NCBI GenBank assembly: GCA_021513715.1
Contig: CP084167.1
Coordinates: 658,117-722,116 of the forward strand
Origin: Candidatus Heimdallarchaeum endolithica
GTDB taxonomy: Archaea; Asgardarchaeota; Heimdallarchaeia; Heimdallarchaeales; Heimdallarchaeaceae
DNA: 64,000 nucleotides
Direction of reading: 5' to 3'
In this document: in pieces, positions 33,236 through 53,849 of the stretch
How the letters are laid out: every line of letters starts with the position of its first letter
Position numbering within the stretch: position 1 is the stretch's first letter
Translations under genes and position numbers: made by a program
The notes under the pieces: model-generated
Database searches by the model: none
The model's input: the letters and a program-made list of their open reading frames with translations, nothing else
Told to the model about the DNA's origin: nothing

Positions 33236-33237
33236 AA

Positions 33238-33660
33238 AATATTATTATTCCACATGTTCGAGAAGGTAAAGGAAAAGGAAAAAGTACTCGTAAGTTTCGC
33301 AGGAAACTTCATCAGTGGAACTTTTCTCTTGTCCTTGCTCTTCTCCGTCGGACACTAATATTAAGAGGTTTTGACCCTCATCGAATATTAACAATAGAAG
33401 AAAGAGGGACATCTTCTCACTGTGCTCGTTACGGGAAGAAAGTTATCCGTCCAGTAAGAGGTTTAGTTCATTGTTCTTCTTGCAATTACACTTTCCACTC
33501 TGACCTCACAGGGGCAATAAATATCGCTCGTAAGTTCCTTGGGGCTCTTTTCCGTCCTCGAGGAACAACTATCACTGATTACCTCACTGGTCAAAGGTTC
33601 AGTTCTACCCATTTCACTGTTTGCCGAGGGCTCAGCCATTGGTTGCAGTCCCAGTAGATG
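33238..33660 (+). pseudogene. 5'-truncated TnpB-like nuclease gene (zinc finger plus RuvC-III)
   Basis: No start codon; translation ...IRPVRGLVHCSSCNYTFHSDLTGAINIARKFLGALFRPRGTTITDYLTGQRF... aligns with the C-terminal ~120 aa of the intact gene at 51095-52609. Confidence 0.65.
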
Positions 33661-33720
33661 AAAAAGGACTTAACTAATTCTATCCTCTTATATTTGAGGT
33701 TTAGTTCTTTCTTTTTTGTC

Positions 33721-33800
33721 TCTCGTGGAGTGAAGAAAGATAGAAAGAAAAACTTTCTTTTCTTCTTTATGATTCCCACGATTCGTGTATGATGTCTGTC
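33721..33800 (+). ncRNA. Degenerate copy of the TnpB-associated structured 3' element
   Basis: CTCGTGGAGTGAAGA...hairpin...CTTTATGATTCCCACGATTC matches 52649-52710; the inner stem differs in sequence but stays complementary. Confidence 0.35.
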
Positions 33801-34017
33801 TCAACTCTTCATAGCATTGTATGACTTGGTTGAGTTCAAGAGATTAAACTTTTACTTGTTTTTTCTCTTGCAAGACAGAGTGCGAAAAACTTTACGTAAA
33901 AAAGTAAATCATGACAAAATACTGCATCTTCTGGTGTTTTTGATCCACATTTTGTACAATATTTCATAAACATTCACCCATATTACTACCATAGTAGTAA
34001 TACTATCTTATATAAAT

Positions 34018-34572: not shown

Positions 34573-34604
34573 TCAAATCTTTTCTCCGAGTTGAGTTATA
34601 GTTT

Positions 34605-35171: not shown

Positions 35172-35257
35172 TGTTTTTCCTCAGAAACATTCATTTATTA
35201 GTATATACTTAAAAGAATCACTTAAAGTATAAAAAATTAATGTATTAGCTACTTTAC

Positions 35258-35827: not shown

Positions 35828-35967
35828 CCAATATCTCTGTTAATCTTTTTTTCCTAATATATTCTCCTTATTCCATGTTTAAATTTTTTTATCTAGGAAA
35901 CTTCGTTCAAAAAAAAGTTTAAAAATAACATTTAAAAATAAACATCAAAAAGAGCAGAAGAGAAAGA

Positions 35968-37221
35968 ATGTCGAGGATACATAGTAAAAATCCTATTGCT
36001 TCATTAAGTATTTTGATTTTTGGTCATTTTCTCAACCATTTCTATGCTTATGTGTTTGGTGCAGCAATGTTTGTGATAAGAAATGATATAGTTATGAACA
36101 ATAAACAAATTGGATTATTAGCAACTATTCAAATGGTAGTTTTTGCACTTTGCACTTTTATTGTAGGAGTGTTGGGAGATAAATGGTTAGCAAGTAAAAA
36201 ACTGTTTGTACCCGTAGGTATTTTCTTTATGGCACTACATCTGATAGTTGCATCAATAGCTCAAAGATATATCGTTCTTGCAATTGCAGCAGCGATTGTA
36301 GGTTTTGGTGCTTCTTTTTATCATCCTGTAGCCTATGCAGCAATAGCAGATCTCTATGAAGATAAAAAAGGATTGACTATGGCTCTAAATGCTGCTTTAG
36401 GAATGATTGGAACAGCTCTTACACCAGGAATAATTGCTTCATTTAGCGAGTGGATTGGATGGAGAAAATTCTTTCTATACTTTGGTCTGGGCGCAATAGT
36501 TTTAACTTTTCTAATGTTTATAGGATTTAATAGACTAATAGACTATAGCTTTGAAAAAGAAGAATTAGAACAAATAGAAAAAAGAAGAAATTCAATGACA
36601 ATGAAAGAAAGAATAATCTATTGGCTAAAATTTGAATTTCTAGCTATTCTAACTTTAGCTGTAATAACATGCTTGGCCTATTCTTCGCTTAGATCTGGCT
36701 TATACAAAATAGTGACACAGTTTTTAAGTATTATATTTGTAGATTACTATGATTATAACATATTAAATGCTGGTTGGTTATCATCAGTAATGCTGATAAT
36801 AGGTGGATTAACTGCCATTTTTGGAGGAATATTGAGCGATAAGAAAAATACTCCGTTAACTATGTTTATTTCTTTATTTGGTTCTACAATATCGATTTTG
36901 CTTATTTTTCTATTAGGCAAAAATACAGGAACTTGGGGAATAATAATTCTTTATTTTTCATTTATAGCTTTCTTACACTTCAGTAGTGCTGCAAGTACAA
37001 AATTTGTAACAGAGGAAGTACATCAAAAAAGTAGATCTACAGCTCTCGGTTTCTTGTTTGCGATTCCTAATACACTTGCAGCTATATTTCCTTGGTCATT
37101 TGGATACTTTATGGATAACTCACCGTTTGATATAACACTAATCTATCTGTTCTTCATTGCCTTAGTTGCAACAATGTTAACAATTATATTATTTGCGCGA
37201 GAGCTAAAAAAGAAAAAATAA
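35968..37221 (+). CDS. MFS transporter
   Basis: 12 predicted TM helices in two 6-helix halves. Confidence 0.7.
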   Translation: MSRIHSKNPIASLSILIFGHFLNHFYAYVFGAAMFVIRNDIVMNNKQIGLLATIQMVVFALCTFIVGVLGDKWLASKKLFVPVGIFFMALHLIVASIAQRYIVLAIAAAIVGFGASFYHPVAYAAIADLYEDKKGLTMALNAALGMIGTALTPGIIASFSEWIGWRKFFLYFGLGAIVLTFLMFIGFNRLIDYSFEKEELEQIEKRRNSMTMKERIIYWLKFEFLAILTLAVITCLAYSSLRSGLYKIVTQFLSIIFVDYYDYNILNAGWLSSVMLIIGGLTAIFGGILSDKKNTPLTMFISLFGSTISILLIFLLGKNTGTWGIIILYFSFIAFLHFSSAASTKFVTEEVHQKSRSTALGFLFAIPNTLAAIFPWSFGYFMDNSPFDITLIYLFFIALVATMLTIILFARELKKKK

Positions 37222-37355: not shown

Positions 37356-40300
37356 CTATAATTTTCCTTCATTTGAGCGCTCAAAAGATGAGAATTCATT
37401 AAGAAGGCGGTCAATAGCTTCTGTGATTTCTTCTTTACTACCTGATGCAAAAGTGAAAATAACCATTTCTCCATCTATCACAAGGAGATCTTCAGGAAGG
37501 GTAACTAACCATCTATACAATGCCCCACGATTAGTGAATTCTAATGCATCCACTAAATCTTGAATAGACACTTTTTTAGCTCTTTTTGCTAGTCCTCCTA
37601 AAGTATTTCTTCTTTTAATAGACATTTGCCATTCAGCAAAAGAATCAAATCCTTCATTTAACGCTTGTTGATATGTAGGATAATCTGGAAAACCATTTTT
37701 ACTTGCTTTGCTTGCAGAAGTAAAATCAGGAGCTTTCATTTTCTTAACAAAAATTAACCCATTTTTATTTTCAGCGCCTAGTTTTTGAGCTTCTTCATAT
37801 TCTTCATAATTAGAAAAACCACCATCTTTTATCTTTTTAGCAATATCATAACTAGGAGCCCCTAACTTCTTCGTTAGTTCAAATCTTTCTTTATTTTCAG
37901 CGCCTAGTTTTTGAGCTTCTTCATATTCTTCATAATTAGAAAAACCACCATCTTTTATCTTTTTAGCAATATCATAACTAGGAGCATTAGTTTGTAAAAT
38001 TTCTAAATTCATTTTTCTTTTATTTAAACGGTAGCGAATGAAAAATACCAAGCCAACTATAAATAATAAAAATAATGATCCGATAGGAATAATGTAAAAT
38101 TTTAAAGGGTTAGAACTTGATTTTAAGGGATTTGTATTAAATATTAACTCTATTTTATCGGAAAATCCATCGTTGTCTGTGTCTGTGTCTGTAGGGTCAG
38201 TATAATAAGTATTTACTTCTTCTTCATCAGTTAACCCATCGTTGTCTGTGTCTGTGTCTGTAGGGTCAGTATAATAAGTATATTCTTCTATGTTAGTTAG
38301 CCCATCATTATCATCATCTTCGTTTGCGTTACTTGTTAATGGGTCTAAATTGTAAAGTACTTCCCACCCATCTGGCATTCCATCATTGTCTGTGTCTGTG
38401 TCTGTAGGGTCAGTATAATAAGTATATTCTTCTATGTTAGTTAGCCCATCATTATCATCATCTTCGTTTGCGTTACTTGTTAATGGGTCTAAATTATAAA
38501 GTACTTCCCATCCATCTGGCATTCCATCATTGTCTGTGTCTGTGTCTGTAGGGTCAGTATAATAAGTATATTCTTCTATGTTAGTTAGCCCATCATTATC
38601 ATCATCTTCGTTTGCGTTACTTGTTAATGGGTCTAAATTATAAAGTACTTCCCATCCATCTGGCATTCCATCATTGTCTGTGTCTGTGTCTGTAGGGTCA
38701 GTATAATAAGTATATTCTTCTATGTTAGTTAGCCCATCATTATCATCATCTTCGTTTGCGTTACTTGTTAATGGGTCTAAATTGTAAAGTACTTCCCATC
38801 CATCTGGCATTCCATCATTGTCTGTGTCTGTGTCTGTAGGGTCAGTATAATAAGTATATTCTTCTATGTTAGTTAGCCCATCATTATCATCATCTTCGTT
38901 TGCGTTACTTGTTAATGGGTCTAAATTGTAAAGTACTTCCCATCCATCTGACATTCCATCTTCATCAGTATCAGCTTTTTTGGGATTTGTACCTAAGTAA
39001 TCTTCCAAAAAGGAGGATAAACTATCATTGTCAGGGTCTACATCTGCTAAATTATTTGTTCTGGAAAAGTTTCCTGTTCCACTTAAACCCTGCCAAAAAA
39101 CATTAATACCTGAAGGTTCAAATTCTAAAGCATAAATACTATAGTCAAAACTGCCTATTAATAAATCTAGTTTTCCATCCCCATTTATATCTGCGATAGC
39201 AGGAGAAGAGTCGATATCTCCACCTGTTGTGTATGACCATATTACTGTCCCATTTTGCCCATTAAGAACATAAATCCTGTCATCTTTACTTCCTATTATT
39301 ACATCTAGTTTTCTATCCCCATTTATATCTGCGATAGCAGGAGAAGAGTCGATATCTCCACCTGTTGTGTATGACCATATTACTGTCCCATTTTGCCCAT
39401 TAAGAACATAAATCCTGTCATCTCTACTTCCTATTATTACATCTAGTTTTCTATCTCCATTTATATCTGCGATAGCAGGTGAAGAGTAAATAACTCCACC
39501 TGTTGTGTATGACCATATTACTGTCCCATTTTCCCCATTAAGAGCATAGACTAAGCTATCATAACTTCCTATTATTACATCTAGTTTTCCATCCCCATTT
39601 ATATCTGCGATAGCAGGAGAAGCGCAGATATCATATCCTGTTATATATGACCATATTACTGTCCCATTTTCCCCATTAAGAACATAAATCCTGTCATCTC
39701 TACTTCCTATTATTACATCTAGTTTTCCATCCCCATTTATATCTGCGATAGCAGGAGAAGAGTCGATATCTCCACCTGTTGTGTATGACCATATTACTGT
39801 CCCATTTTGCCCATTAAGAACATAAATCCTGTCATCTTTACTTCCTATTATTACATCTAGTTTTCCATCCCCATTTATATCTGCGATAGCAGGAGAAGAG
39901 TCGATATCATATCCTGTTGTGTATGACCATATTACTGTCCCATTTTCCCCATTAAGAACATAAATCCTGTCATCTCTACTTCCTATTATTACATCTAGTT
40001 TTCCATCCCCATTTATATCTGCGATAGCAGGAGAAGAGTGAATAGCAGCACCTGTTGTGTATGACCATTCTAATAAACCAAATTTTCCTATAACATATAT
40101 TGTATTATCAACGCTACCTACAATTACTTCTGTAACTCCATCATTGTCTATATCCGCTGCAGAACATGAAGAAACAATATAATTGTTAGTTTTGTAGTAC
40201 CAAAGTCGATTAGAAGTCAATGAATTTACCGAACTAGAGAGAGATATCTGCTGTTCTGATAATGGTAAGGAATAACTAAAACTTGGTAAATAAAATGAAT

Positions 40301-40481
40301 CTGTGGACTGTTTAACTGAGGTCAAATTATCTTGTGAATTTGTTGTTGTAATATCTTGATAATTTGATAACACTAATAATACAATAAGCGTTGTAGATAA
40401 AATTATTCTCTTTTTTATAATAAAATTGAATAGCTCATCAAAAATATGACGCCATATTTCATTTTTTTTTGAATTAATCAT
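37356..40481 (-). CDS. Large surface-anchored repeat protein: beta-propeller (FG-GAP/PQQ-like) blades plus thrombospondin-type-3-like calcium-binding repeats
   Basis: N-terminal signal/anchor; 8 copies of YTTGGDIDSSPAIADINGDGKLDVIIGS..DDRIYVLNGENGTVIWS; 5 copies of DTDTDNDGMPDGWEVLYNLDPLTSNANEDDDNDGLTNIEEYTYYTDPT; TM helix; cytoplasmic tail with a duplicated 32-aa unit. Confidence 0.75.
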   Translation of the reverse strand: MINSKKNEIWRHIFDELFNFIIKKRIILSTTLIVLLVLSNYQDITTTNSQDNLTSVKQSTDSFYLPSFSYSLPLSEQQISLSSSVNSLTSNRLWYYKTNNYIVSSCSAADIDNDGVTEVIVGSVDNTIYVIGKFGLLEWSYTTGAAIHSSPAIADINGDGKLDVIIGSRDDRIYVLNGENGTVIWSYTTGYDIDSSPAIADINGDGKLDVIIGSKDDRIYVLNGQNGTVIWSYTTGGDIDSSPAIADINGDGKLDVIIGSRDDRIYVLNGENGTVIWSYITGYDICASPAIADINGDGKLDVIIGSYDSLVYALNGENGTVIWSYTTGGVIYSSPAIADINGDRKLDVIIGSRDDRIYVLNGQNGTVIWSYTTGGDIDSSPAIADINGDRKLDVIIGSKDDRIYVLNGQNGTVIWSYTTGGDIDSSPAIADINGDGKLDLLIGSFDYSIYALEFEPSGINVFWQGLSGTGNFSRTNNLADVDPDNDSLSSFLEDYLGTNPKKADTDEDGMSDGWEVLYNLDPLTSNANEDDDNDGLTNIEEYTYYTDPTDTDTDNDGMPDGWEVLYNLDPLTSNANEDDDNDGLTNIEEYTYYTDPTDTDTDNDGMPDGWEVLYNLDPLTSNANEDDDNDGLTNIEEYTYYTDPTDTDTDNDGMPDGWEVLYNLDPLTSNANEDDDNDGLTNIEEYTYYTDPTDTDTDNDGMPDGWEVLYNLDPLTSNANEDDDNDGLTNIEEYTYYTDPTDTDTDNDGLTDEEEVNTYYTDPTDTDTDNDGFSDKIELIFNTNPLKSSSNPLKFYIIPIGSLFLLFIVGLVFFIRYRLNKRKMNLEILQTNAPSYDIAKKIKDGGFSNYEEYEEAQKLGAENKERFELTKKLGAPSYDIAKKIKDGGFSNYEEYEEAQKLGAENKNGLIFVKKMKAPDFTSASKASKNGFPDYPTYQQALNEGFDSFAEWQMSIKRRNTLGGLAKRAKKVSIQDLVDALEFTNRGALYRWLVTLPEDLLVIDGEMVIFTFASGSKEEITEAIDRLLNEFSSFERSNEGKL
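38150..38960 (-). repeat. Intragenic tandem repeat, 144-bp unit, about 5.5 near-identical copies
   Basis: Unit recurs at 38371, 38515, 38659, 38803, 38947 (period exactly 144 bp); encodes the 48-aa Asp-rich repeat. Confidence 0.85.
39100..40080 (-). repeat. Intragenic tandem repeat, 138-bp unit, 7-8 near-identical copies
   Basis: ATCTGCGATAGCAGG recurs at 39189, 39327, 39465, 39603, 39741, 39879, 40017 (period exactly 138 bp); encodes the 46-aa propeller blade. Confidence 0.85.
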
Positions 40482-40596
40482 ATTTATAACCTTTACATTT
40501 ATATATTACAGATTCTCTGTTAAGAACTGCTTATTTATAAGTTGTAAATAATAAAGTGAAAACAAATATAAATAATTTACTTAATTTTTTCTCGGT

Positions 40597-40700
40597 TCTT
40601 TGTTCACTCAATAGACTTGGATTACACTTTTGGGCACTAGAGAAACATAGGGGTGATTCATAAATTTTTCTCCAGGAGTAAGGAGGTTAAGAGACTAATG
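40597..40700 (-). pseudogene. 3'-terminal fragment of an IS481-like transposase gene
   Basis: Reverse complement of 40621-40700 is near-identical to 44540-44627 (…TPGERFMNHPYVSLVPKSVTQVY*). Confidence 0.6.
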
Positions 40701-40729
40701 AGGTCAACTAAAATTGTAGTAAAAAAGTA

Positions 40730-41270
40730 AATCATGTCTAAAAAGTCTATTTCTTGACTTACACTGCCTGAAGGAGCAAAAGGTAATTGTAGCAGATTAG
40801 AGGACTGTAGAAAGTATTAAGGACACAAGAAGGTAAACGATCAAGGATAGGGGAAGAGAGATTTTGAGGAAACCGAAAACATGTTCAACACTACTACGAT
40901 ATTCAGGGTGATGATTATAGTTATTGAGACCAGAATAAAGACGATGAGCATGGTCTTATCCCTATTATTTATCCTAAAACTAACGCTCGTTATTCTGGTT
41001 ATCCACCATTTGTATCTATAGTCCATGAGTTGAAATTTTACGTAATTTCTTCAGGACTCTCCCCAACCAATCAACAAACTTAGCGAAAGTTGTGAAGACT
41101 GGCTTAAGAGAACATGAAAGACACAGTCTTAATTAAGTTCTCTAAGGGGTTCATCTCCTTATCCCGGGCACTCATAACTCCCAAAGGGAAGACCGGGTGT
41201 CGTAGGAGTGAAACCTACGTCTTTAAGCATATAGCTCAAGACACTAGATAAATTAGAATTAAATATATAA
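40730..41270 (-). pseudogene. 5'-truncated, indel-bearing copy of the IS4/IS5-like DDE transposase gene
   Basis: Minus-strand AHRLYSGLNNYNHHPEYRSSVEHVFGFLKISLP... aligns with the C-terminal half of the transposase at 48491-49435; degenerate right inverted repeat at about 40729-40747. Confidence 0.6.
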
Positions 41271-41286
41271 AGATAGCTGAAAAGTT

Positions 41287-41892
41287 GTGACACTCCCTAA
41301 TATCGTGTATGTATTCTTTATTTTTGCAAATGTGTTTCAGGTTGTTATTGGTCTGATAACTCCACAAACTAAAAATTTAGTTTATTACGTAAAAAAGTAT
41401 CTCATGGACATAGTAGGTCCTACAGCTGAAATTAATGAATTAAGTGTTATTACAAAAACAGGTGATATTAGTGTTAATTCACACACTACTGAAAATGTTA
41501 CAATTAACAACATTATGCTTATTTCAACTACAGGTATTATTCATTTTAGTTTAAGTGATGAAGGAATAAATTATATAAGCAATGCTCTTTCAACCACTAC
41601 TACAGGAAAGATAGAGTTCGATTTTGGAAATAATTGCACTTACAACGGAACAGAAATTAACCTTTCAACAACAACAGGAAAAATAGTTGTTTATTGTACA
41701 AATATGAATTACTTAGTCAATGTATCGTGGTTAATTTCTACAACTACTGGTTCTGTTTATGCAAATATTACTCAAGATTTTATTATTGAAAATCAATTAC
41801 AAGTTTCGTTTTTCATTACAGTAAATACTGGTTCAATAGAAGTATTAACTACTTTTCATGAAGAGCTTTTTTGTACATTTTTGTCAAATTAA
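41287..41892 (+). CDS. Hypothetical protein with STTTGKI repeats (DUF4097/adhesin-like)
   Basis: Three to four repeats of STTTG(K/S)I in a beta-rich sequence; GTG start, so the true start is uncertain. Confidence 0.35.
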   Translation: MTLPNIVYVFFIFANVFQVVIGLITPQTKNLVYYVKKYLMDIVGPTAEINELSVITKTGDISVNSHTTENVTINNIMLISTTGIIHFSLSDEGINYISNALSTTTTGKIEFDFGNNCTYNGTEINLSTTTGKIVVYCTNMNYLVNVSWLISTTTGSVYANITQDFIIENQLQVSFFITVNTGSIEVLTTFHEELFCTFLSN

Positions 41893-42430
41893 AAAATTGG
41901 TGTTTAAATAGTGAAAAGACATTATTAATGTAGAGAGTGAAAAAAAAAGATAGATGTTAAGAAAAATACTTACTCTCTAAGCTGGCACGGCGTGTCAGGA
42001 TAAAAAAAACATGCGCATAAAGAAAGAAATCAAAGAAAATTTGAATACGACTTAACTTTCCCGTGTGAGAGGATTTATTCATCCAGTTTCCACGGTGGAG
42101 GAGTGCTCAACCTTCTCCTCTGGCTCAATGAGTGTTTAGATCTCCCTCCTAGACAGATCTTTCCGAGAGCAAGATTGGCGTACAAAAATATTGTACAAAA
42201 ATTAAGTTGATGAAGATATAGGCTACCTTTTTGAAGCAAATACAGCTACAGGTACAATAAGCATTCCTAGTCAATCAACAAACTATGATACAGCTCTTAA
42301 CAAATACTATTTCTCTCTGCACACCAGTACTGGAGACATAAAAGCAGAGGTATAATCTACTACTTCTTTTTTTTGTTTTTTCTTTTCTAACTTACAATAA
42401 ATTAAAAAATGAACAAATAATTTTTTTTCT

Positions 42431-43576
42431 ATGAACGAAAAATACATCGATCAAATCAGAGCAAATTCTCCGACTTTAAATCAAGTAACTTTTTTAAATC
42501 ATGCAAGTACAGCACCCTTACACGGTAGAACACAGCAAGCGTTTCATGATTATTTGAATCAGTGGTCTAAGTATGATTTTGCTGAATCCAAAGAAAAGAG
42601 TCAACTAGCTCGTGAGGAATTTGCTAAACTAATTGGTGCTTCAAAGGAAGAAATACTTTTTACTTCTGATGTTACTCAAGGTACCAATCTTGCCGTTCAT
42701 ATGTTAGATTATGATGAAAAAAGTAACATTGTATGTTATTGGAATGATTATGCAGGACAAGTACATAGTGCTCTTTTCTTAAATAAAAAGAAAAAAATAG
42801 AATATCGTCCAGTCCCAGATCGTGAAGGTTACATTTATCCTGATGACTTTGCTGAAAAAATAGATAAGAATACTAAAATTGTTCTTTTGTCTCATGTTCA
42901 ATGGATTACTGGGTTTAAATCTGATATCAAAGAAATAACTAAAATTGCTCATGAAAATGGTGCCATGATTCTTGTAGATGTTATTCAGAGTTCAGGTGTG
43001 CTCGAGATTGATGTTAAAGACTGGGATGTTGATTTTCTTACTTCAGGAGTAGCTAAATGGCTTTTAGGACCAAATCAAGCAGGTTTCTTTTACATGAAAA
43101 AAAAGTTAATTGATGAATACGATCCACCTTTACCTGGTTACCAAGGAGCTGATTACGGCTCGATTGACTCACCTTATTGGAATGTTAAACAGATAGAATA
43201 TAGAGAAGGTATTGACAAGTTTCAAATTGCAAATATTGGACCAATGATGTATCAGATTGCATATGAAGGTATGAAAATAATCACTGAATATGGAATAAAA
43301 AAGGTGGAAAAAAGAGTTTTAGATTTAACTTCTTACCTTATCGAGAGAATTCAAGAACTTGGCAATTATGAGTTTTTAAGTCCTATTGAAGATAAATACA
43401 GAGCTGGAATTGTTAATTTCAAAGTTGAAAACAACATTGAGATAGCTAAAAAACTTTCTGAAGAAAAAGTAGTTGTTTCTTCAAGATATGGAGGAATCAG
43501 GATTAGTCCTCATTTTTATAATACCAAAGAAGACTTAGACAAATTTATAGAATTATTTAAGGCAATCAAAAAATAG
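42431..43576 (+). CDS. PLP-dependent class V aminotransferase / cysteine-desulfurase-fold enzyme
   Basis: SHVQWITGF ... ILVDVIQSSG ... SGVAKWLLGP with candidate PLP-binding Lys. Confidence 0.65.
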   Translation: MNEKYIDQIRANSPTLNQVTFLNHASTAPLHGRTQQAFHDYLNQWSKYDFAESKEKSQLAREEFAKLIGASKEEILFTSDVTQGTNLAVHMLDYDEKSNIVCYWNDYAGQVHSALFLNKKKKIEYRPVPDREGYIYPDDFAEKIDKNTKIVLLSHVQWITGFKSDIKEITKIAHENGAMILVDVIQSSGVLEIDVKDWDVDFLTSGVAKWLLGPNQAGFFYMKKKLIDEYDPPLPGYQGADYGSIDSPYWNVKQIEYREGIDKFQIANIGPMMYQIAYEGMKIITEYGIKKVEKRVLDLTSYLIERIQELGNYEFLSPIEDKYRAGIVNFKVENNIEIAKKLSEEKVVVSSRYGGIRISPHFYNTKEDLDKFIELFKAIKK

Positions 43577-43688
43577 ACTTAAATTCGCTCTATCTTACTT
43601 TTTTTGAACTCACTTATTTCTCTGTGTATACTCCACTCACATTGGTAACAAATAAATAGAAGTGGGTTACGTGGGTAAGTGATTAAAT

Positions 43689-44627
43689 ATGAATAAGACC
43701 GAACGTAACCTGGAGAAACTAAGAAAAATTGTAGTTAAAAAAGCTTTGGAAGGAGAGAAGATAAAAGAGATAGCTCACAAGTATATGGTGAGTAGGAAGT
43801 TTGTGTATAAGTGGTTGAAGAGGTTCAGAGAGAACCCTGAAGGAGAATGGTGGAAAGATAGATCCTCCAGACCAAAAACTATACACAGGAAAGTGGATGA
43901 GGAGTTAAAAGAGAGGATAAGGGAGTTAAGAATAAAACAAGGAATGAATGTGGAGAAGATAGCTTATTTGTTGAAGAGAGAAGGAAAAGCACTCTCTCAG
44001 ACGACAGTGACGAAAGTAATAAAAGAGTTAGGTCTTCCTTTATGGGTCAATAGAAAAAAGAGGAAGAGACCTCGATACAAGAGTTTTGAACGTCAAAAAC
44101 CTAACGAACTCTGGCAAATAGATGTGAAAGGACCATTCTGGGTAGAAGAACAGGGACAACATCTCCATCTCATAACCTTGATAGACGACCACTCACGATT
44201 CTGTCTGGGAGCTAAATTCCACCCTTTTGCACCAAAAAAAGAGCAGATAATAAATCTACTAGAGGAAGCAATAAAAGAGTACGGTTACCCCGAGTCTATC
44301 CTCACGGACAATGGAGCACTCTTCTCTTCCGTTAGAGGAGGAACAAGTACCTTCTCCCGTTGGTGTCAAACAGAAGGAATAAAACACATCAGAGCTAGAG
44401 TTTTTCACCCCGAAACATGTGGAAAAGTAGAAAGACTACATGGGACAATCATCCGTGAGATGGAAAGATTAGGTCTAAAATACTGCAACCCCGACCTCTC
44501 CTACTACCGCTCTTACTACAATTTTAGTCGTCCTCACCAATCTCTTAACTTCCTCACCCCAGGAGAAAGATTTATGAATCACCCCTATGTTTCTCTAGTA
44601 CCCAAAAGTGTAACCCAAGTCTATTGA
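43689..44627 (+). CDS. IS481-family-like transposase (HTH plus rve integrase core, DDE)
   Basis: N-terminal HTH; WQIDVKGPF...LIDDHSR...LTDNGALF...HPETCGKVER; GC content higher than flanking DNA. Confidence 0.75.
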   Translation: MNKTERNLEKLRKIVVKKALEGEKIKEIAHKYMVSRKFVYKWLKRFRENPEGEWWKDRSSRPKTIHRKVDEELKERIRELRIKQGMNVEKIAYLLKREGKALSQTTVTKVIKELGLPLWVNRKKRKRPRYKSFERQKPNELWQIDVKGPFWVEEQGQHLHLITLIDDHSRFCLGAKFHPFAPKKEQIINLLEEAIKEYGYPESILTDNGALFSSVRGGTSTFSRWCQTEGIKHIRARVFHPETCGKVERLHGTIIREMERLGLKYCNPDLSYYRSYYNFSRPHQSLNFLTPGERFMNHPYVSLVPKSVTQVY

Positions 44628-44722
44628 GTAAACACTCACTTATTTCTCTGCCTAAATTTTATATAGTAGTACCTTTTTATCCTCTTAATACAAATACATA
44701 TGACCAATACGGGTGATTTAAA

Positions 44723-48296: not shown

Positions 48297-48460
48297 TGTA
48301 ATTATTGAACTAGAATCATTCCTTTTTTTCTTTTATATATTTTGCCTAAATAAATTTAAGAAGTAGCATTATAGTAAGATTTTTTTTTAAAATATTACCT
48401 TTTTTTTTAATGAACAATACATTTACAATAACAATTAAATATCAAATGTAATTCTAGTAT

Positions 48461-49464
48461 AAGCATGTCCAAAAATTAATTTTTATTAATGTGGGGGTTT
48501 ATGTCGGAAGTATGAATTTCTTTCAGATCATAGACCCCCACAAAGCAAGAGAATTCATAATCATTAATGAACCTTTCCTTAAGAAACTGGTGAAAGAGGA
48601 ACCGAGAGAAAGCAAGAGAGGGAGAAAGAGAATAGCAGAAAGATGGGTGATACTGGCTTTAGCAATCATTGCTAGAATAGAAGGGATAGCTTGGAGGAAG
48701 TTAGAGGAAAAGTTGTCTTTATGCGATTTTTTGATAGAAGAGGGGTGGATGAAGAAGATTCCTTCTAAATCTACTTTTCATGCAGTGTGGAGAGCGACAG
48801 AAAGTAAAATCTTAGAGCAGTGGATAATAGATTTAGGTAGGGAAATAGTGAGGAAAAAAGGCTTGAAAGCTATGGCAGTGGATAGTTCAGGGTTTAAAAT
48901 CCGTCAAGCTTCTGTTTGGCGTTTTCTCAAATGGTCAAGAGGGACACTAAAGAAAACCTCTAAACTTTTCTGGAAGATACACCTTATAGTTGGTTTACCC
49001 TCTCGAGCTATAGTCTCTCTCGCTCATTCTGCTAGTAACACTCACGATAGTAAAGTCTTCGGTTTACTCTGGCAGAAACTTCCTTCTGCACTCTTGAGAC
49101 CTTTCTTGCGATTTTATGGAGACTGTGCCTACTGGACAGAAAATATCGTTGGACTTCTTAGCCAACATTCCTTTTTCCCTGTTATTCCCCCAAAAAGTAA
49201 TGCTCGTTATCCCTCTCCTCCTCCCCTCGGACCAATAGTTCAAGCTCATCGTCTCTACCCTGGTCTGTATCGTCGTAATCATCATCCCGAGTATCGTAGT
49301 AGTATTGAACACGTCTTTGGTCTCCTTAAACTCTCTCTTCCCCCAATCCTTGATCGTTTACCCTCCACCATCCTCTCTACCTTGTACAGTTCTCTTCTCT
49401 GTTACAACTACCTTTTACTCCTTCGGACCGTTTAGTTGGTGAAAAAGAATTTTTGGACATGCTT
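48461..49464 (+). mobile_element. IS4/IS5-family-like insertion sequence (1004 bp) with perfect 17-bp terminal inverted repeats
   Basis: Left IR AAGCATGTCCAAAAATT at 48461-48477; right IR is its exact reverse complement at 49448-49464; flanked by direct repeat TAGTAT at 48455-48460 and 49465-49470. Confidence 0.8.
48491..49435 (+). CDS. DDE transposase (IS4/IS5-like)
   Basis: AVDSSGF, YGDCAY and IEHVFG...K motifs; the ATG at 48512 may be the true start. Confidence 0.75.
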   Translation: MGVYVGSMNFFQIIDPHKAREFIIINEPFLKKLVKEEPRESKRGRKRIAERWVILALAIIARIEGIAWRKLEEKLSLCDFLIEEGWMKKIPSKSTFHAVWRATESKILEQWIIDLGREIVRKKGLKAMAVDSSGFKIRQASVWRFLKWSRGTLKKTSKLFWKIHLIVGLPSRAIVSLAHSASNTHDSKVFGLLWQKLPSALLRPFLRFYGDCAYWTENIVGLLSQHSFFPVIPPKSNARYPSPPPLGPIVQAHRLYPGLYRRNHHPEYRSSIEHVFGLLKLSLPPILDRLPSTILSTLYSSLLCYNYLLLLRTV

Positions 49465-49491
49465 TAGTATATTTGGGAAAAAGAGGTAAAA

Positions 49492-50838: not shown

Positions 50839-51094
50839 ATTGAAGAACTTGAAAAGAAAGTAGAAATACCAAGAGAGTGGGTTATAAAAACAGCTTATAA
50901 AATAGAAACTCTGGAAGGAGGTTATTATCTATGGAAAGAGTTTCTAGGAGCATTAAACAAGGATTCTCTACTGATGATAGAAAACGACAGTTTACCCCAT
51001 GAAAAAATTTTTTGTATAAATTCTTTAGGTTTTTAAATAAATTGCTTAATTAATAAATAGAGAAAAGAAAGTGAAGAAGAAAAAGGATTAGAAA

Positions 51095-52609
51095 ATGGAG
51101 AAAATAGTGAGAACATTAAGAGTAAGAGTAAAAACAGAAAAATTAACGAAGTTCAAAAAAGATAGAATGAGAAAGATAACAGGAAGAGATACTAGAATAA
51201 TAGAAGAATATGTAAAAATAATAAGAAAAGAAGAAGAAAAAGTAATAAGAAAAATAAGCAAACAAGGAGAGATAAGACTAAAAGTGCATAAAGGCAAGTT
51301 AGATGAACTAACACTAACAACAACAAAGAAAACAAATAAGAAAAAAAGGACAGTTGTACCCTATGATCTCAAAAAAAAGTTTCCTAATTGTTCTCACGAT
51401 GAATTTCAAGAGTGTAGAGATGTAGCAGTACAACTTTATGAACAAGGATATAACAAAAAAAAGAACAAAAAAAGAAAAAAAGGATATATTTTACCACCAG
51501 TAAAACGAGCAAGAAAACAACTAATCAATAAAAATAGATTTATCATAAAACATTTGCCTAAAGGGAAAAACACTCTTTCTCGTTGGTGGGTAGGGATAAG
51601 AGACTCATTAGACACACAAAAAAGAAAAAAACGAACACATCGAAGACTATGGATACCACTAGAAATGAGTGAATATCACCAAAAAGAAATAAGAAAAGGA
51701 CAAGTAAAAAGTCTAGAATTAAAATATAACTCACAAAAAAACAGTTGGTGGGTAAATTTTCAGATAACAATTATTCCTCAAGCAGATCTCTACAAGAAAA
51801 AAAAAGTTGACTCTTCTCTTCTTCCTCCAGCTGTGCTGGGAATAGATCTGGGAGAAAAAATACCTGGAGCAGGAGTGTTATTAACATCAACAGGTAAAAT
51901 ATCTCCCAATCATATTTTCTTCTGGAAAATGAAAGAATGGAAAAAAAGGAAGTATATCTATCAACAGAAAATAAGAAGATTGCAACGAAAACTTGCAAAA
52001 AAGAAGAATACATGTAAAGACAAAAGAAGCAATAAAGGATATCAAACATTAAAAAAATTAAGAAAAAGATATCAGACGCTCTCTCATGCTTATTTATATG
52101 CTTTTATCAATGAGTTGTGGAAAGATATTGTTGAACTTACACAGGATTATAATTTAGTCGTTGTTGTTGGTTACCCCAAGGGAGTACACTCGAAATTAAG
52201 AAAAAAAGTAATGAATCAAGACTACAGACCACAGAACTCTTCTACTCGTTTTACTCGTAAAAAGGTTCACCCGTGGAATTACTACCAAATAGTTACTCTT
52301 CTTCGACGAATGTGTCTTCTAAATGGGTTAGAACCCGAACGTATCCTCACCTTACAGGAATATCTTACCTCTTCTCTTTGCTCAAAATGTGGACGAAAGA
52401 CTATTCGACCTGTTAGAGGTCTTGTTTATTGTTCTCATTGTCATTATACTCTTCACTCTGACCTTACCGGTGCAATCAACATCGGGAAATTGTTTCTTCG
52501 TTTTCTTTTTCGCCCCCGAGCATCTACACTAGTTGATTATCTTACTGGACAACACTTTAGTCTCACCTTTTATACTTCCTTCAGGGGTCTCAACCAGTGG
52601 TTGAAATAG
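51095..52609 (+). CDS. tnpB: TnpB-like RuvC nuclease (IS200/IS605 OrfB, Cas12/Fanzor-related)
   Basis: RuvC-I LGIDLG, RuvC-II region around FINELW, zinc finger CSKCG...CSHCH, RuvC-III HSDLTGAINIG; lysine/arginine-rich N-terminal half. Confidence 0.8.
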   Translation: MEKIVRTLRVRVKTEKLTKFKKDRMRKITGRDTRIIEEYVKIIRKEEEKVIRKISKQGEIRLKVHKGKLDELTLTTTKKTNKKKRTVVPYDLKKKFPNCSHDEFQECRDVAVQLYEQGYNKKKNKKRKKGYILPPVKRARKQLINKNRFIIKHLPKGKNTLSRWWVGIRDSLDTQKRKKRTHRRLWIPLEMSEYHQKEIRKGQVKSLELKYNSQKNSWWVNFQITIIPQADLYKKKKVDSSLLPPAVLGIDLGEKIPGAGVLLTSTGKISPNHIFFWKMKEWKKRKYIYQQKIRRLQRKLAKKKNTCKDKRSNKGYQTLKKLRKRYQTLSHAYLYAFINELWKDIVELTQDYNLVVVVGYPKGVHSKLRKKVMNQDYRPQNSSTRFTRKKVHPWNYYQIVTLLRRMCLLNGLEPERILTLQEYLTSSLCSKCGRKTIRPVRGLVYCSHCHYTLHSDLTGAINIGKLFLRFLFRPRASTLVDYLTGQHFSLTFYTSFRGLNQWLK

Positions 52610-52775
52610 ACCTATGTACTATTATACCATAATGGTAGAATACTTAGTACTCGTGGAGTGAAGAGTTCTACTCTTCTTTATGCGTCCCACGATTCCTAGA
52701 TGATGTCAGTATGCTCAAACATCTGTTTCAGCGTTTGTATTCTTCCACTGACGTAGTAGGAGAAAATTGTACAAA
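52610..52775 (+). ncRNA. Candidate TnpB-associated guide-RNA scaffold (omega-RNA/reRNA-like) and element right end
   Basis: Immediately after the tnpB stop: near-palindrome TACCATAATGGTA (52625-52638), nested stems CGTGG...GAAGAG-loop-CTCTTC...CCACG (52649-52700), ending near palindromic TTGTACAA (52767-52774); core conserved with compensatory changes at 33721-33800. Confidence 0.4.
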
Positions 52776-53849
52776 AAATTAACTCATGAAGAAGAATACT
52801 TGATAAACGCTATAGGATTAGGAGGAGAAATAATACCTGACATCAAGAGCAATTTCAAAAAACTAATTGAAATATTCGCAGAAGCTCCTGACGATCTTGT
52901 AAAAATAGGAGATACAGCCTTTTTCATGGGTTATATGGATAATATTTATTCTAGCCAGTTTTGGACAATAAAAAACTTCGTTAAAGGAAACAAAAAAAAT
53001 TGGAAAAAAGATTTTATAAAAATAGCAATAAAAGCATATTCAAAAGCTCTAGATAATATTATTCCATCAGTTAACCCAGTAAAGTACGGTTTGCTAATAA
53101 ACGATTTAGGAGTATTTTACTTATTTCTGTCAGAATTAGAGCAAACTAAAAAACACACTATAGAAGCAATCAAAAATTTACTTGATGCAAAAAAAGCATT
53201 ACCTTTAGAGTTCTTTAAAACAAAACATAGTGATATTTGTTATAATTTAGGACTGGCTCATTTATTTTTGTCTAAAATAGAAGAAAAAGAAGAAAATATT
53301 AAACAAGCTATTCTAAACTTTAACGTTGCTCTGCAAGGAAGAACGTTAAGAATGTATCCATTGAAACATGCTATAACACAAGTCAATCTAGGAATTGTCT
53401 ACCAAAAATTAGCTGAAATCGAAGAAACCTCTTTAAATTGTACATTAAGTATAGAATCTTATAACAATGCTTTGAGATCCAACACTCTAGACGTCATGCC
53501 AACAGAAGCAGCGATGATATATAACAACATAGGTCTATCTTATTGCACTTTATCTGATGTACAGGAAACAGAATACAATATTTCACAAGCTTTAATTGTT
53601 TTAAATGATGCTTTGACCATCAGAAATGAAGCACAGTTTCCTGTTGAATATGCAATTACAACAAGTATTTTAGGAAAAGCTTATACAATTCTAGCAACAG
53701 TAAAAGAAAAAAAAGAATATTATGAAAAGGCAATATCAGCATTTAATAAAACAATTAAGATATTCATCAAGAAATATGAAGACTTCTACCAAGCAATAAT
53801 ACAAGAAAAAGAAAAAGTAGAAGAGAAACTAAAAGAAATAGCGCAATAA
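52767..53849 (+). CDS. TPR-like helical repeat protein
   Basis: Recurrent (N/Y)N(L/I)G..Y..L...E pattern every ~40 aa; start ambiguous (TTG at 52767, TTG at 52800 or a downstream ATG). Confidence 0.5.
   Translation: MYKKLTHEEEYLINAIGLGGEIIPDIKSNFKKLIEIFAEAPDDLVKIGDTAFFMGYMDNIYSSQFWTIKNFVKGNKKNWKKDFIKIAIKAYSKALDNIIPSVNPVKYGLLINDLGVFYLFLSELEQTKKHTIEAIKNLLDAKKALPLEFFKTKHSDICYNLGLAHLFLSKIEEKEENIKQAILNFNVALQGRTLRMYPLKHAITQVNLGIVYQKLAEIEETSLNCTLSIESYNNALRSNTLDVMPTEAAMIYNNIGLSYCTLSDVQETEYNISQALIVLNDALTIRNEAQFPVEYAITTSILGKAYTILATVKEKKEYYEKAISAFNKTIKIFIKKYEDFYQAIIQEKEKVEEKLKEIAQ

What the first reader, a model, noticed from the sequence alone, without database searches (positions are those of the whole stretch)
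40597..41270. Nested IS graveyard: IS4/IS5-like remnant abutting the 3' end of an IS481-like transposase gene
Read on the minus strand, a 5'-truncated, indel-bearing copy of the IS4/IS5-like transposase is followed within ~30 bp of its degenerate right end by the last ~100 nt of an IS481-like transposase gene, near-identical to 44540-44627. This records an insertion of one IS into another followed by deletion. I first took this GC-rich stretch for a structured RNA before recognising the homology.
Basis: seen in the sequence. Interest (0 to 1): 0.4.

Follow-up and report, generated by a model that had tools for sequence, protein, structure and literature searches.

The report
Transposon scrapyard hiding a small mobile element
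This stretch of a Heimdallarchaeum genome is a pile of broken transposon pieces inside a wrecked host gene, which is ordinary, except that its GC-rich part is an undescribed 383-bp gene-less mobile element that may carry a guide-RNA-like transcript.

Summary
40601-40722 is the reverse complement of the last 122 nt of the IS481-family element at 43625-44634 (89%, E 1e-41). 40728-40952 is the reverse complement of the last 226 nt of the IS5-like element at 48460-49464 (76.5%, one 1-nt deletion, E 1e-42).

The rest of the interval is not IS5-like:
- 40953-41023 is a further 70 nt of the IS5-like gene, but flipped.
- 41024-41270, which holds the GC-rich stretch, is the left two thirds of a separate 383-bp repeat, "X" (41024-41406).

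X occurs at 84-95% identity in about 11 other loci with unrelated flanks, in Ca. Heimdallarchaeum aukensis and in metagenomes. Its ends have the same design as three TnpB (IS200/IS605-type) elements nearby. It always sits at an NCAT/YATG motif, and I found no target duplication beyond that motif. So it is a non-autonomous IS200/IS605-type element (a PATE).

An 18-nt vestige of one more such element lies exactly at the IS481/IS5 junction, so "IS5 inserted into IS481" is not shown.

A relative with intact sites shows the whole cluster lies inside a disrupted zinc-ribbon membrane-protein gene.

Verdict: an ordinary insertion-sequence (IS) scrapyard with one new member of a known kind. A guide-RNA role for X is untested.

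The parts
40601..40722 (-). 3' fragment of an IS481-family element: last 37 codons of the transposase plus the right terminal repeat. The outer end is intact at 40601.
   Evidence: blastn 89.3%/122 nt to 44513-44634, E 1e-41. tblastn aa 276-312, E 2e-15. The reference copy passes the NCBIfam IS481 cutoff (232 vs 224 bits).
40719..40736 (+). 18-nt vestige of the end of an IS200/IS605-type (tnpB-2-type) element. It bridges the IS481 and IS5-like fragments and includes the otherwise unexplained 5-nt filler at 40723-40727.
   Evidence: The exact 18-mer GTAAAAAAGTAAATCATG occurs only here and at 33896-33913, the end of the tnpB remnant. The identity stops at the centre of the ACGT hairpin loop. GTAA is shared with the IS481 sequence, a 4-nt microhomology.
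40728..40952 (-). 3' fragment of an IS5-like element: transposase aa 251-314 plus the right terminal repeat, with a frameshift from a 1-nt deletion.
   Evidence: blastn 76.5%/226 nt to 49241-49466, E 1e-42. tblastn hits fall in two frames. The reference ORF has Pfam DDE_Tnp_1 (3e-11); its best NCBIfam match, IS5_2, is below cutoff.
40953..41023 (+). About 70 nt of the same IS5-like gene (aa ~224-250), inverted relative to the previous part. Its breakpoint is contiguous with that part (49242 against 49241).
   Evidence: Sensitive blastn 40956-41025 = 49173-49242, 68.6%, E 2e-5. tblastn aa 224-256 on the + strand, E 0.003. Translation.
41024..41406 (-). Element X: a 383-bp non-autonomous IS200/IS605-type element (PATE). 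On the minus strand, which I infer is the top strand: left end at 41403-41380 (GAGATAC-T6-ACGT-A run); invariant TTTATATA box at about 41258-41251; conserved GC-rich segment at about 41235-41140; right end at 41049-41025 (hairpin plus AACTCAT).
   Evidence: 84-95% identical copies in 8 metagenome contigs and 5 H. aukensis loci, with unrelated flanks. Junctions. Alignment and conservation. It interrupts a DUF1028 gene in L013. No ORF and no TnpB coding remnant.
41407..41859 (+). Remnant of the host zinc-ribbon membrane-protein gene (residues ~211-367 of the 411-aa orthologue). The mechanical ORF 41287-41892 is a composite of X, this fragment and the next element.
   Evidence: tblastn of the L016 411-aa protein: residues 211-367 = 41398-41868, 70%, E 1e-67. 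Pfam Zn_Ribbon_1 on the orthologue.
41860..42211 (+). Element Y: a 352-bp internally deleted, non-autonomous derivative of a tnpB-only IS (TnpB-1 type). It keeps the left end, the 3' end of tnpB and the right end, inserted without target duplication.
   Evidence: 42056-42211 matches the 3' end plus right end of the L013 TnpB element at 76%. Empty site in L016...TTCCACG|ATGATATTGG against window ...TTTCATG|[Y]|AAGATATAGG. The Logan contig L001 starts at 42187, about 25 nt inside this right end.
43625..44634 (+). Reference full-length IS481-family element with a 16-bp target duplication CTCACTTATTTCTCTG.
   Evidence: Direct repeat. L016 has a single copy of the site. Pfam HTH/rve. NCBIfam IS481 equivalog.
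48460..49464 (+). Reference full-length IS5-like element, with 21/23 terminal inverted repeats and TAGTA on both sides.
   Evidence: Inverted repeats. Sequence. Absent from L016.
33274..33913 (+). 5'-truncated tnpB remnant (TnpB-2) with its end ...CTTTACGTAAAAAAGTAAATCATG. It abuts the first 19 codons (minus strand, 33967-33911) of the same host zinc-ribbon gene.
   Evidence: tblastn E 8e-8. Pfam Cas12f1-like_TNB 2e-8. 58% identical to the C-terminus of TnpB-3. Host residues 1-19. Sequence.
51001..52787 (+). Full-length tnpB-only IS200/IS605-type element (TnpB-3, 504-aa ORF 51095-52609). It serves as the in-window reference for end architecture and insertion signature.
   Evidence: tblastn E 1e-11. 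Pfam Cas12f1-like_TNB 3.8e-10. Empty site in L016...CCCCACG|AAGAAGAATAC, with no target duplication.

Best explanation
The interval is a patchwork of dead or gene-less mobile-element pieces inside one destroyed host gene of Candidatus Heimdallarchaeum endolithica. From left to right on the + strand:
1. The last 122 nt of an IS481-family element (reverse complement).
2. An 18-nt scrap of the end of an IS200/IS605-type tnpB element.
3. The last ~225 nt of an IS5-like element (reverse complement, frameshifted).
4. A further ~70 nt of that IS5-like gene, flipped.
5. Element X (41024-41406), a 383-bp non-autonomous IS200/IS605-type element.

What is shown directly:
- The homologies and their coordinates.
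- X is a dispersed repeat with unrelated flanks, and it interrupts a gene elsewhere.
- The related tnpB elements in this window insert without target duplication, next to a CAT(G) motif.

What is inferred:
- X moves by the single-strand 'peel-and-paste' route. A Y1 (HUH) TnpA supplied in trans would recognise its subterminal T-run/ACGT/A-run hairpins. It would insert the element 3' of an NCAT motif, with an element-borne TCAT at the other end.
- The window's minus strand is X's top strand.
- X inserted into the IS5-like copy just after that copy's GCAT. Later rearrangements with breakpoints exactly at X's termini gave today's order. These were an inversion of X plus 70 nt, or recombination between two X copies.

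What is only a hypothesis: the conserved TATA box and the ~225 nt downstream of it form a guide-RNA-like (omega-RNA-like) transcript. It would run out through X's right end into flanking DNA, for use by a TnpB made elsewhere.
For: Repeats: searches give E 1e-41, 1e-42 and 2e-5.

X is a separate dispersed repeat:
- A 21-mer from the GC-rich part hit 8 metagenome contigs. A second 26-mer hit 5 loci of H. aukensis CP084166.1.
- All share only 41022/25-41406/08, at 84-95%. Flanks are mutually unrelated apart from three orthologous pairs, which leaves about 11 independent loci.
- In L013, X interrupts a DUF1028 gene at profile position 49 of 193.

X belongs with the IS200/IS605-type elements:
- Empty sites in the related MAG contig L016 show that TnpB-3 (51001-52787) and Y (41860-42211) inserted with no target duplication. 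Each has CAT(G) on the left and an element-borne (T)CAT(G)/TGAT(G) on the right.
- X has the same end design. Its minus-strand left end CATG-AGATAC-TTTTTT-ACGT-AA compares with the TnpB-1 left end CATG-AATAAC-TTTTTT-GTAC-AAAA. Its last 8 nt, AACTCATG, are identical to those of TnpB-3.
- In that orientation the flanking motif is CCAT in 7 of 10 loci (the rest are GCAT, TGAT, ACAT). The terminal motif is TCAT in 9 of 9.
- No direct repeat of the flanks beyond the shared ATG motif.

No coding capacity.

Conservation pattern: the TATA box is invariant. The region from the TATA box to the right end is far better conserved than the other 135 nt, which are replaced in the L011/L005 variant.

Host context: L016 synteny places residues 1-19, 211-367 and 365-411 of one 411-aa gene at 33967-33911, 41398-41868 and 42212-42352.

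Literature: gene-less PATEs that 'often encode omega RNAs' used in trans are described for IS200/IS605 (PMC10055086).
Against: - No Y1 TnpA gene was found in the window among the ten small ORFs scanned. I could not search the whole genome, so the mobilising enzyme is unidentified.
- Because the flanking motif and the element's terminal motif share (C/T)ATG, a 2-4-bp target duplication cannot be formally excluded. No empty site for any X copy was obtained.
- X's ends are near-inverted repeats (18/23), so orientation rests on modest differences in motif consistency.
- No tnpB element with an X-like 3' region was found.
- RNA support is weak. Folding z-scores are only -1.9 to -2.7 and similar on both strands. 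The core is invariant, so only 2 of 60 predicted pairs show compensatory change. Rfam gives nothing.
- The order of rearrangement events is a reconstruction, not an observation.
Confidence: 0.75

Rival explanations
1. All of 40728-41270 is one 5'-truncated, indel-bearing IS4/IS5-like transposase copy that had inserted into an IS481-like element, followed by deletion.
For: The 3' fragments of both elements are real and only 5 nt apart. The IS481 sequence at the junction contains TACTA, the reverse complement of the TAGTA that flanks the intact IS5-like copy. So an IS5 insertion there is conceivable.
Against: 41026-41270 has no DNA or protein similarity to the IS5-like element. It is part of a 383-bp repeat found in about 11 other places. 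40953-41023 is on the wrong strand. The junction carries an exact 18-mer of a third element, so it is not a terminus-to-interior insertion junction.
Confidence: 0.1
2. X is a conventional DDE-type MITE. It would have 23-bp imperfect terminal inverted repeats (CATGAGTTGAAATTTTACGTAAT / CATGAGATACTTTTTTACGTAAT), be mobilised by a cut-and-paste transposase, and make a 2-4-bp duplication of an (C)AT(G) target.
For: The ends match 18/23 as inverted repeats. ATG is present on both sides in all but one copy. The tetranucleotides are identical on both sides in 4 of 8 loci.
Against: The tetranucleotides differ in the other 4 of 8 loci. The 'inverted repeat' is largely a self-complementary hairpin, TTACGTAA with T/A runs, of the same design as the ends of three tnpB elements. 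Two of those are shown by empty sites to insert without duplication. The flank preference is one-sided: CCAT in 7/10 on one side and none on the other. Neither DDE element in the window shares these ends.
Confidence: 0.15
3. The GC-rich segment (about 41140-41235) is a stand-alone structured cellular RNA gene or regulatory leader, conserved for the host's benefit, and its spread is by gene duplication rather than transposition.
For: GC is 0.40-0.42 against 0.19-0.30 around it. There are local hairpins with z about -2.7. The core is invariant across copies and a conserved TATA box sits beside it. In two loci the element's end coincides with the ATG of a long ORF.
Against: Copies have sharply defined common ends and unrelated flanks. 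One interrupts a DUF1028 gene and one is itself interrupted by a tnpB element. There is no Rfam or tRNA match. In most loci the junction ATG opens only a 1-32-codon frame.
Confidence: 0.05
4. The juxtapositions are assembly artefacts: repeats mis-joined in a metagenome-derived genome.
For: The genome is repeat-rich, and short-read Logan contigs break at IS ends (L001 = 42187-43653; L002 is bounded by the IS481 and IS5-like copies).
Against: The fragments are 11-24% diverged from the intact copies, so they are not mis-placed reads of those copies. Junctions show biological signatures: motif-precise ends and microhomology. The source genome was published as circularised, with repeats deliberately retained (PMC8813620). 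Unique flanks match independent assemblies at 100%.
Confidence: 0.03

Closest known systems
PATEs, the gene-less derivatives of IS200/IS605 elements (first named in Haloquadratum walsbyi, PMC3119063; PATE-like elements that often encode omega RNAs in Geobacillus stearothermophilus, PMC10055086)
   Same: X is short (383 bp) and has no ORF. It has subterminal palindromic hairpins at both ends and a fixed short motif on one flank, with a similar element-borne motif at the other end. No target duplication was detected beyond the shared ATG motif (not formally excluded). It shares its end design with tnpB-bearing elements in the same genome. It has a conserved internal non-coding segment placed next to the right end.
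   Different: The hairpin loop is ACGT rather than the GTAC of the neighbouring TnpB-1/TnpB-3 elements. The internal 225-nt conserved segment matches no tnpB 3' region available here, and it has its own TATA box. No cognate TnpA or TnpB was identified. The host is an Asgard archaeon.
IS1341-type (tnpB-only) IS200/IS605 elements, such as ISDra2 and IS608, and their omega/right-end RNAs
   Same: The window's TnpB-3 element, the tnpB-2 remnant, Y and L013's TnpB-1 element have RNA-guided-nuclease-type ORFs (NCBIfam guided_TnpB; Pfam Cas12f1-like_TNB). For TnpB-3 and Y, empty sites show insertion next to a 4-5-nt motif without duplication. X has the same end layout.
   Different: X lacks tnpB and any trace of it. 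Whether its transcript exists or binds a TnpB is untested.
IS481 family
   Same: The intact copy has HTH plus rve domains and passes the NCBIfam equivalog cutoff. Its terminal repeats start TGT. The fragment at 40601-40722 is its 3' end.
   Different: The target duplication of the intact copy is 16 bp. From memory of ISfinder, the usual range is 4-15 bp.
IS5 family (IS4/IS5 DDE_Tnp_1 superfamily)
   Same: The ORF has a DDE_Tnp_1 domain. The element is about 1 kb, with 21/23 terminal inverted repeats and a short TAGTA duplication.
   Different: It is only a distant member. Its best NCBIfam model, IS5_2, scores 70.9 bits against a cutoff of 140. IS4_1 scores much lower (27.5).

Membership tests
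IS481 family (fragment 40601-40722 and reference 43625-44634) | Transposase with N-terminal HTH and an rve (DDE) integrase core that reaches the curated family threshold | tested here: met
   NCBIfam transpos_IS481 scores 232.4 bits against a cutoff of 224. Pfam rve 1.2e-17, HTH_28/HTH_32. The fragment matches aa 276-312 at 86%.
IS481 family (fragment 40601-40722 and reference 43625-44634) | Terminal inverted repeats and a target-site duplication | tested here: met
   About 14/21 terminal repeats starting TGT (read). The 16-bp direct repeat is single-copy in the empty site of L016.
IS5 family (fragments 40728-41023 and reference 48460-49464) | DDE_Tnp_1 transposase that reaches a curated IS5 model threshold | tested here: not met
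   Pfam DDE_Tnp_1 passes (43.9 vs 23 bits). The best NCBIfam model, IS5_2, reaches only 70.9 of 140 bits. So this is IS5-like, not a certified member.
IS5 family (fragments 40728-41023 and reference 48460-49464) | Terminal inverted repeats with a short target duplication | tested here: met
   21/23 inverted repeats at 48461-48483 / 49442-49464. TAGTA lies on both sides, against one TAGTT in L016.
IS200/IS605 non-autonomous element (PATE), for X 41024-41406 | Dispersed copies with common ends and unrelated flanks, showing mobility | tested here: met
   About 11 independent loci. One copy interrupts a DUF1028 gene.
IS200/IS605 non-autonomous element (PATE), for X 41024-41406 | Subterminal hairpins at both ends, resembling those of tnpA/tnpB-bearing elements in the same genome | tested here: met
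   T-run/ACGT/A-run palindromes lie 6-7 nt from one end and 8-10 nt from the other. The layout parallels the ends of TnpB-1, Y, TnpB-3 and the tnpB-2 remnant.
IS200/IS605 non-autonomous element (PATE), for X 41024-41406 | Insertion 3' of a fixed short motif with no target-site duplication | tested here: inconclusive
   The motif is present in all copies (CCAT 7/10; TCAT terminal 9/9) and the flanks show no direct repeat. No empty site for X itself was obtained, and the shared ATG could hide a 2-4-bp duplication. Absence of duplication is proven only for the sister elements TnpB-3 and Y.
IS200/IS605 non-autonomous element (PATE), for X 41024-41406 | A Y1 (HUH) TnpA in the genome able to act in trans | not testable with these tools
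   None was found among the window's small ORFs scanned.
TnpB omega RNA (right-end guide RNA), for the conserved segment of X | Transcript ending at the element's right end and continuing into flanking DNA | not testable with these tools
   Only positional evidence: an invariant TTTATATA about 25 nt upstream of the conserved 225-nt block, which ends at the right end. No expression data.
TnpB omega RNA (right-end guide RNA), for the conserved segment of X | Conserved secondary structure, or similarity to a known omega RNA or to a tnpB 3' region | tested here: not met
   No Rfam match even at E 10. No nhmmer/blast similarity to the 3' regions of the three tnpB elements beyond the last ~22 nt. 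Only 2 of 60 pairs are compensatory. Folding z is -1.9.

The most novel reading that the evidence does not exclude
X would be a free-standing, self-promoted guide-RNA cassette that hitch-hikes as an IS200/IS605-type mini-element in Heimdallarchaeia. Its archaeal TATA box would drive a ~225-nt structured RNA through the right end into whatever DNA flanks each copy. That would give a TnpB-type nuclease made elsewhere a different guide at each of a dozen or more loci. The inversions and deletions whose breakpoints fall exactly on X's termini (this window and L010) would then be scars of that activity.
Probability: 0.3. Interest if true: 0.5.

Novelty: new member of a known kind. Interest (0 to 1): 0.3.

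Why it matters
IS fragments pile up in IS-rich genomes, and the Heimdallarchaeum genomes are already reported to be about 3% non-tandem repeats, with 11 transposase/integrase families (PMC8813620).

Three things are worth keeping:
- A third of the interval would be mis-annotated as IS5 debris. It is really an undescribed gene-less IS200/IS605-type element, with at least a dozen copies in the genus. The mechanical 201-aa ORF at 41287-41892 is an artefact stitched from three different things.
- The locus gives clean filled-site/empty-site pairs that define the insertion motif (NCAT) of Heimdallarchaeum TnpB elements. That motif would be these nucleases' expected target-adjacent motif.
- If X's conserved transcript is a trans-acting guide RNA, it would document modular TnpB/guide-RNA biology in the archaeal lineage reported as closest to eukaryotes (PMC8813620).

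Tried and rejected
- tRNA (ARAGORN) and Rfam searches, at gathering thresholds and at E up to 10, gave nothing for the GC-rich stretch. I read the sequence by eye for a tRNA-like T-arm and rejected it because the loop is non-canonical.
- I first suspected that X's terminal ATG marks gene starts, making X a mobile promoter. The ATG opens a long ORF only in the window and in L011/L005, and the window's ORF is a truncated host gene. Rejected.
- I looked for homology between X and the 3' region of the tnpB-2 remnant beyond the last 22 nt. The shared TCGTGTATG depends on a window-specific 4-nt duplication, so I treated it as chance.
- I looked for TnpB coding remnants in X and found none.
- nhmmer with the X profile found no diverged copy in the window or in any locus.
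- X has no match in IMG/VR, INPHARED phages or PLSDB plasmids.
- Exact-protein look-ups for ORFs in and next to the interval, intended to recover independent contigs across the junctions, all failed.
- I searched for a Y1 TnpA among the window's small ORFs and found none.
- I tried to reconstruct the full order of rearrangements, including the inversion that separates codons 1-19 of the host gene from the rest. I could not settle it, because the reference contig L016 ends at the equivalent of window 37195.
Full report
**Source.** The window is about 30% GC. Its aminotransferase (42431-43576) is 100% identical to a protein that NCBI names from Candidatus Heimdallarchaeum endolithica, on a 3,326,783-bp contig. 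This is the circularised Asgard genome of Wu et al. 2022. That paper reports ~3% non-tandem repeats and 11 transposase/integrase families, and does not mention MITEs (PMC8813620).

**Checking the observation.** A blastn of 40400-41400 against the window gives two strong hits.
- 40601-40722 is the reverse complement of 44513-44634: 89.3% over 122 nt, E 1e-41.
- 40728-40952 is the reverse complement of 49241-49466: 76.5% over 226 nt, E 1e-42.

The reference elements are intact.
- 43625-44634 encodes a 312-aa protein with HTH plus rve domains. It passes the NCBIfam IS481 equivalog cutoff (232 vs 224 bits).
- 48460-49464 encodes a 314-aa DDE_Tnp_1 protein. Its best curated match is IS5_2, but below cutoff (70.9 of 140 bits; IS4_1 only 27.5). 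I therefore call it IS5-like.

Global alignments show that the IS481 fragment runs to that element's outer terminus. They also show that the IS5-like fragment has a single 1-nt deletion that shifts the frame, consistent with the two-frame tblastn hits. The fragments are 5 nt apart.

Past 40952 the only further IS5-like sequence is 40956-41025. It lies on the other strand and matches 49173-49242 at 68.6%, E 2e-5. The peptide LIPIIYPKTNARYSGYPPFVSIVHE matches aa 224-249. Its breakpoint (49242) is contiguous with that of the main fragment (49241), so one piece is flipped relative to the other.

From 41026 to 41270 nothing matches either IS, at DNA or protein level. This is the GC-richer part (0.40-0.42 against 0.19-0.30 around it). 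It has no tRNA or Rfam match and a modest folding z of -2.7 on both strands.

**What the GC-rich part is.**
- A 21-mer from it (GGGAAGACCGGGTGTCGTAGG) found eight JGI metagenome contigs.
- A different 26-mer found five loci, all in Ca. H. aukensis CP084166.1.
- Every one shares with the window only 41022/25 to 41406/08, at 84-95% identity.
- Flanks are unrelated among loci, except for three metagenome/genome orthologous pairs (L012=L006, L014=L004, L011=L005). That leaves about 11 independent sites.
- In L013 the copy interrupts a DUF1028 gene at profile position 49 of 193.

So 41024-41406 is a 383-bp mobile repeat, which I call X. It has no ORF of note and no trace of a transposase or TnpB. 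It also supplies the first 39 codons of the mechanical ORF 41287-41892.

**Which kind of element X is.** The neighbourhood supplied the key.
- L013's copy of X is itself interrupted by a 1.6-kb element. That element encodes a 448-aa TnpB (NCBIfam guided_TnpB 128 vs 100 bits; Pfam Cas12f1-like_TNB).
- The 3' end and right end of that element match window 42056-42211 (76%).
- tblastn with this TnpB found two more in the window: a full-length one (ORF 51095-52609; TNB domain) and a 5'-truncated one (33274-33645; TNB domain; 58% identical to the former).

A related Heimdallarchaeaceae MAG contig, L016, has an aminotransferase 89% identical to the window's. It lacks all these elements and gives empty sites.
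- TnpB-3 element. L016 reads ...TTACCCCACG|AAGAAGAATAC. The window reads ...TTACCCCATG|AAAAAATTTTTTGTA...AATTAACTCATG|AAGAAGAATAC.
- The 352-bp derivative Y (41860-42211). L016 reads ...TTCCACG|ATGATATTGG. The window reads ...TTTCATG|AAGAGCTTTTTTGTACA...AAGTTGATG|AAGATATAGG.

Neither insertion duplicates the target. Both sit just after CAT(G) and end in an element-borne (T)CAT(G) or TGAT(G). That is the IS200/IS605 signature of a flanking motif plus a transposon-encoded motif, as described in PMC10055086.

By contrast, the same comparison confirms classical duplications for the IS481 copy (16 bp) and the IS5-like copy (TAGTA).

X's ends have the same design as these tnpB elements: a short spacer, then a T-run/4-nt palindrome/A-run hairpin.
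- Read on the window's minus strand, X's left end is CATG-AGATAC-TTTTTT-ACGT-AA. TnpB-1's is CATG-AATAAC-TTTTTT-GTAC-AAAA.
- Its last eight bases, AACTCATG, equal those of TnpB-3.
- In that orientation the flanking motif is CCAT in 7 of 10 loci (others GCAT, TGAT, ACAT), and the terminal motif is TCAT in 9 of 9.
- In the other orientation the flank motif is much less consistent.
- No direct repeat of the flanks is seen.

I therefore file X as a non-autonomous IS200/IS605-type element, a PATE (PMC3119063, PMC10055086), with three caveats:
- No empty site for X itself was available.
- The shared ATG could conceal a very short duplication.
- No Y1 TnpA was found in the window.

**The conserved interior.** In the alignment of 12 copies, a TTTATATA box on the minus strand (about 41258-41251) is invariant. 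The ~225 nt from there to the minus-strand right end (41025) are far better conserved than the 135 nt on the other side. That other side is largely replaced in the shorter L011/L005 variant. The layout is promoter, then structured GC-rich segment, then right-end hairpin, then flank. That is where TnpB elements carry their guide (omega) RNA, and PATEs are said to 'often encode' such RNAs.

The evidence stops at position and conservation.
- The core is invariant, so only 2 of 60 predicted pairs show compensatory change.
- The folding z is -1.9.
- Nothing similar is found in Rfam or in the 3' regions of the three tnpB elements.

I treat the guide-RNA reading as a hypothesis with about 30% probability.

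**The IS481/IS5 junction.** The five 'filler' bases, with their neighbours, form GTAAAAAAGTAAATCATG (40719-40736). This is an exact copy of the last 18 nt of the tnpB-2 remnant (33896-33913). No other exact copy exists in the window. X's own end at 41389-41406 differs at 2 positions. The identity ends at the centre of the ACGT hairpin loop, and GTAA is shared with the IS481 sequence.

The IS5-like terminal repeat contains GCAT, a suitable insertion motif. The simplest reading has two steps. First, a tnpB-2-type element had inserted into the terminal repeat of the IS5-like copy. Second, a later microhomology-mediated deletion fused the last 14-18 nt of that element to the interior of an IS481 copy. 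On that reading the IS481 breakpoint at 44513 is a deletion endpoint. 'IS5 inserted into IS481' is possible but not demonstrated.

**X and the IS5-like copy.** The flipped 70-nt piece ends ...ATAGTCC, directly against X's minus-strand right end. The main fragment ends, on the complementary strand, ...GAGCAT. Together they reconstruct ...GAGCAT|GGACTAT..., an NCAT site with X's right end joined exactly where an insertion would put it.

X's other end abuts CCAT on the antisense strand of the host gene. That too looks like a genuine insertion junction, but at a different site. Either of two events would give this arrangement:
- X plus the adjacent 70 nt was inverted, with one break exactly at X's left end.
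- Two X copies recombined.

In L010 the first 152 nt of X are likewise inverted in place. One break is at X's terminus. The other is at the internal CTCAT where the TnpB-1 element sits in L013. These are inferences from junction sequences.

**Host context.** L016's 411-aa Zn_Ribbon_1 membrane protein maps to the window in three places:
- residues 1-19 at 33967-33911 (minus strand, against the tnpB-2 remnant);
- residues 211-367 at 41398-41868;
- residues 365-411 at 42212-42352.

Residues 20-210 are gone. At least 3.3 kb (33910-37195, up to the end of the reference contig) is inverted relative to L016. The scrapyard therefore lies inside one destroyed gene at the edge of a larger rearrangement.

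**Assembly.** Independent short-read Logan contigs from SRR15988960/61 match the unique flanks at 100%. They stop ~25-30 nt inside repeats, as expected for real multi-copy elements: L001 = 42187-43653, and L002 is bounded by the IS481 and IS5-like copies. I could not recover contigs across the internal junctions.

**Verdict.** The repeats are real and the general idea of an IS scrapyard is right and ordinary. The GC-rich third of the interval is a new, gene-less member of the IS200/IS605 family, not IS5 debris. Its possible guide RNA is the only feature of more than routine interest.

Noticed in passing
window 33910-37195 versus L016 5-3287; window 33967-33911, 41398-41868, 42212-42352: Relative to a related MAG, at least 3.3 kb (MFS transporter, two small GTPases, YdjM, first 19 codons of the zinc-ribbon gene) is inverted. 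This splits one 411-aa host gene into pieces 7.4 kb apart, with residues 20-210 lost. The reference contig ends at the equivalent of 37195, so the far breakpoint is unknown. It may be at ~40600.
   Followed up: partly
window 43609-43624 and 44635-44650: The intact IS481-family element is flanked by a 16-bp target duplication. A single copy of the site in L016 confirms it. From memory of ISfinder, this is at or just above the upper end of what is usual for the family.
   Followed up: yes
window 51001-52787: A full-length tnpB-only IS200/IS605-type element (504-aa TnpB-like ORF). It is inserted, without target duplication, inside a gene that in L016 is an uninterrupted 625-aa TPR-like protein. 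The window ORF 49492-50838 is the truncated 5' part of that gene.
   Followed up: partly
window 41860-42211: Y is a 352-bp internally deleted derivative of a TnpB-1-type element. It keeps both ends and the 3' (guide-RNA) region, so it is a second gene-less IS200/IS605 element within 500 bp of X.
   Followed up: yes
window 47623/47644 versus L016 8705-11628: About 2.9 kb that encodes an ABC transporter (ATPase plus two permeases) in the related MAG is absent from the window, between the P-type ATPase and the TPR gene.
   Followed up: no
window 32970-33259 and 36929-37219: Two inverted copies of the 3' end of the MFS transporter gene, 77% identical to each other. The orphan copy next to the tnpB-2 remnant is closer to L016 (88%) than the copy inside the complete gene (84%).
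   Followed up: no
L010 1778-2155: This copy of X has its first 152 nt inverted in place. One breakpoint is at X's terminus. The other is at the internal GGCACTCAT, the same site where a TnpB element is inserted in L013. Rearrangements with breaks at X's cleavage-type motifs therefore recur.
   Followed up: partly
window 37356-40481: A 1041-aa FG-GAP / bacterial TSP3-repeat surface protein gene with long near-perfect internal tandem repeats (up to 99% over 581 nt). It is probably why short-read assemblies and the reference MAG contig break here.
   Followed up: no
L016 13980-13986 and 4312-4318 versus window 50995-51001 and 41854-41860: At both tnpB-element insertion sites the related MAG has CACG where the window has CATG. 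In each case it is a synonymous His-codon third position. So the empty allele lacks the insertion motif.
   Followed up: partly
L011 6524-7684 and L005 53-1257: A shorter variant of X (~323 bp) ends exactly at the ATG of a 279-aa membrane protein with a C-terminal zinc ribbon. L012's copy also lies upstream of a membrane protein with a zinc ribbon. This may be coincidence or a target preference.
   Followed up: no
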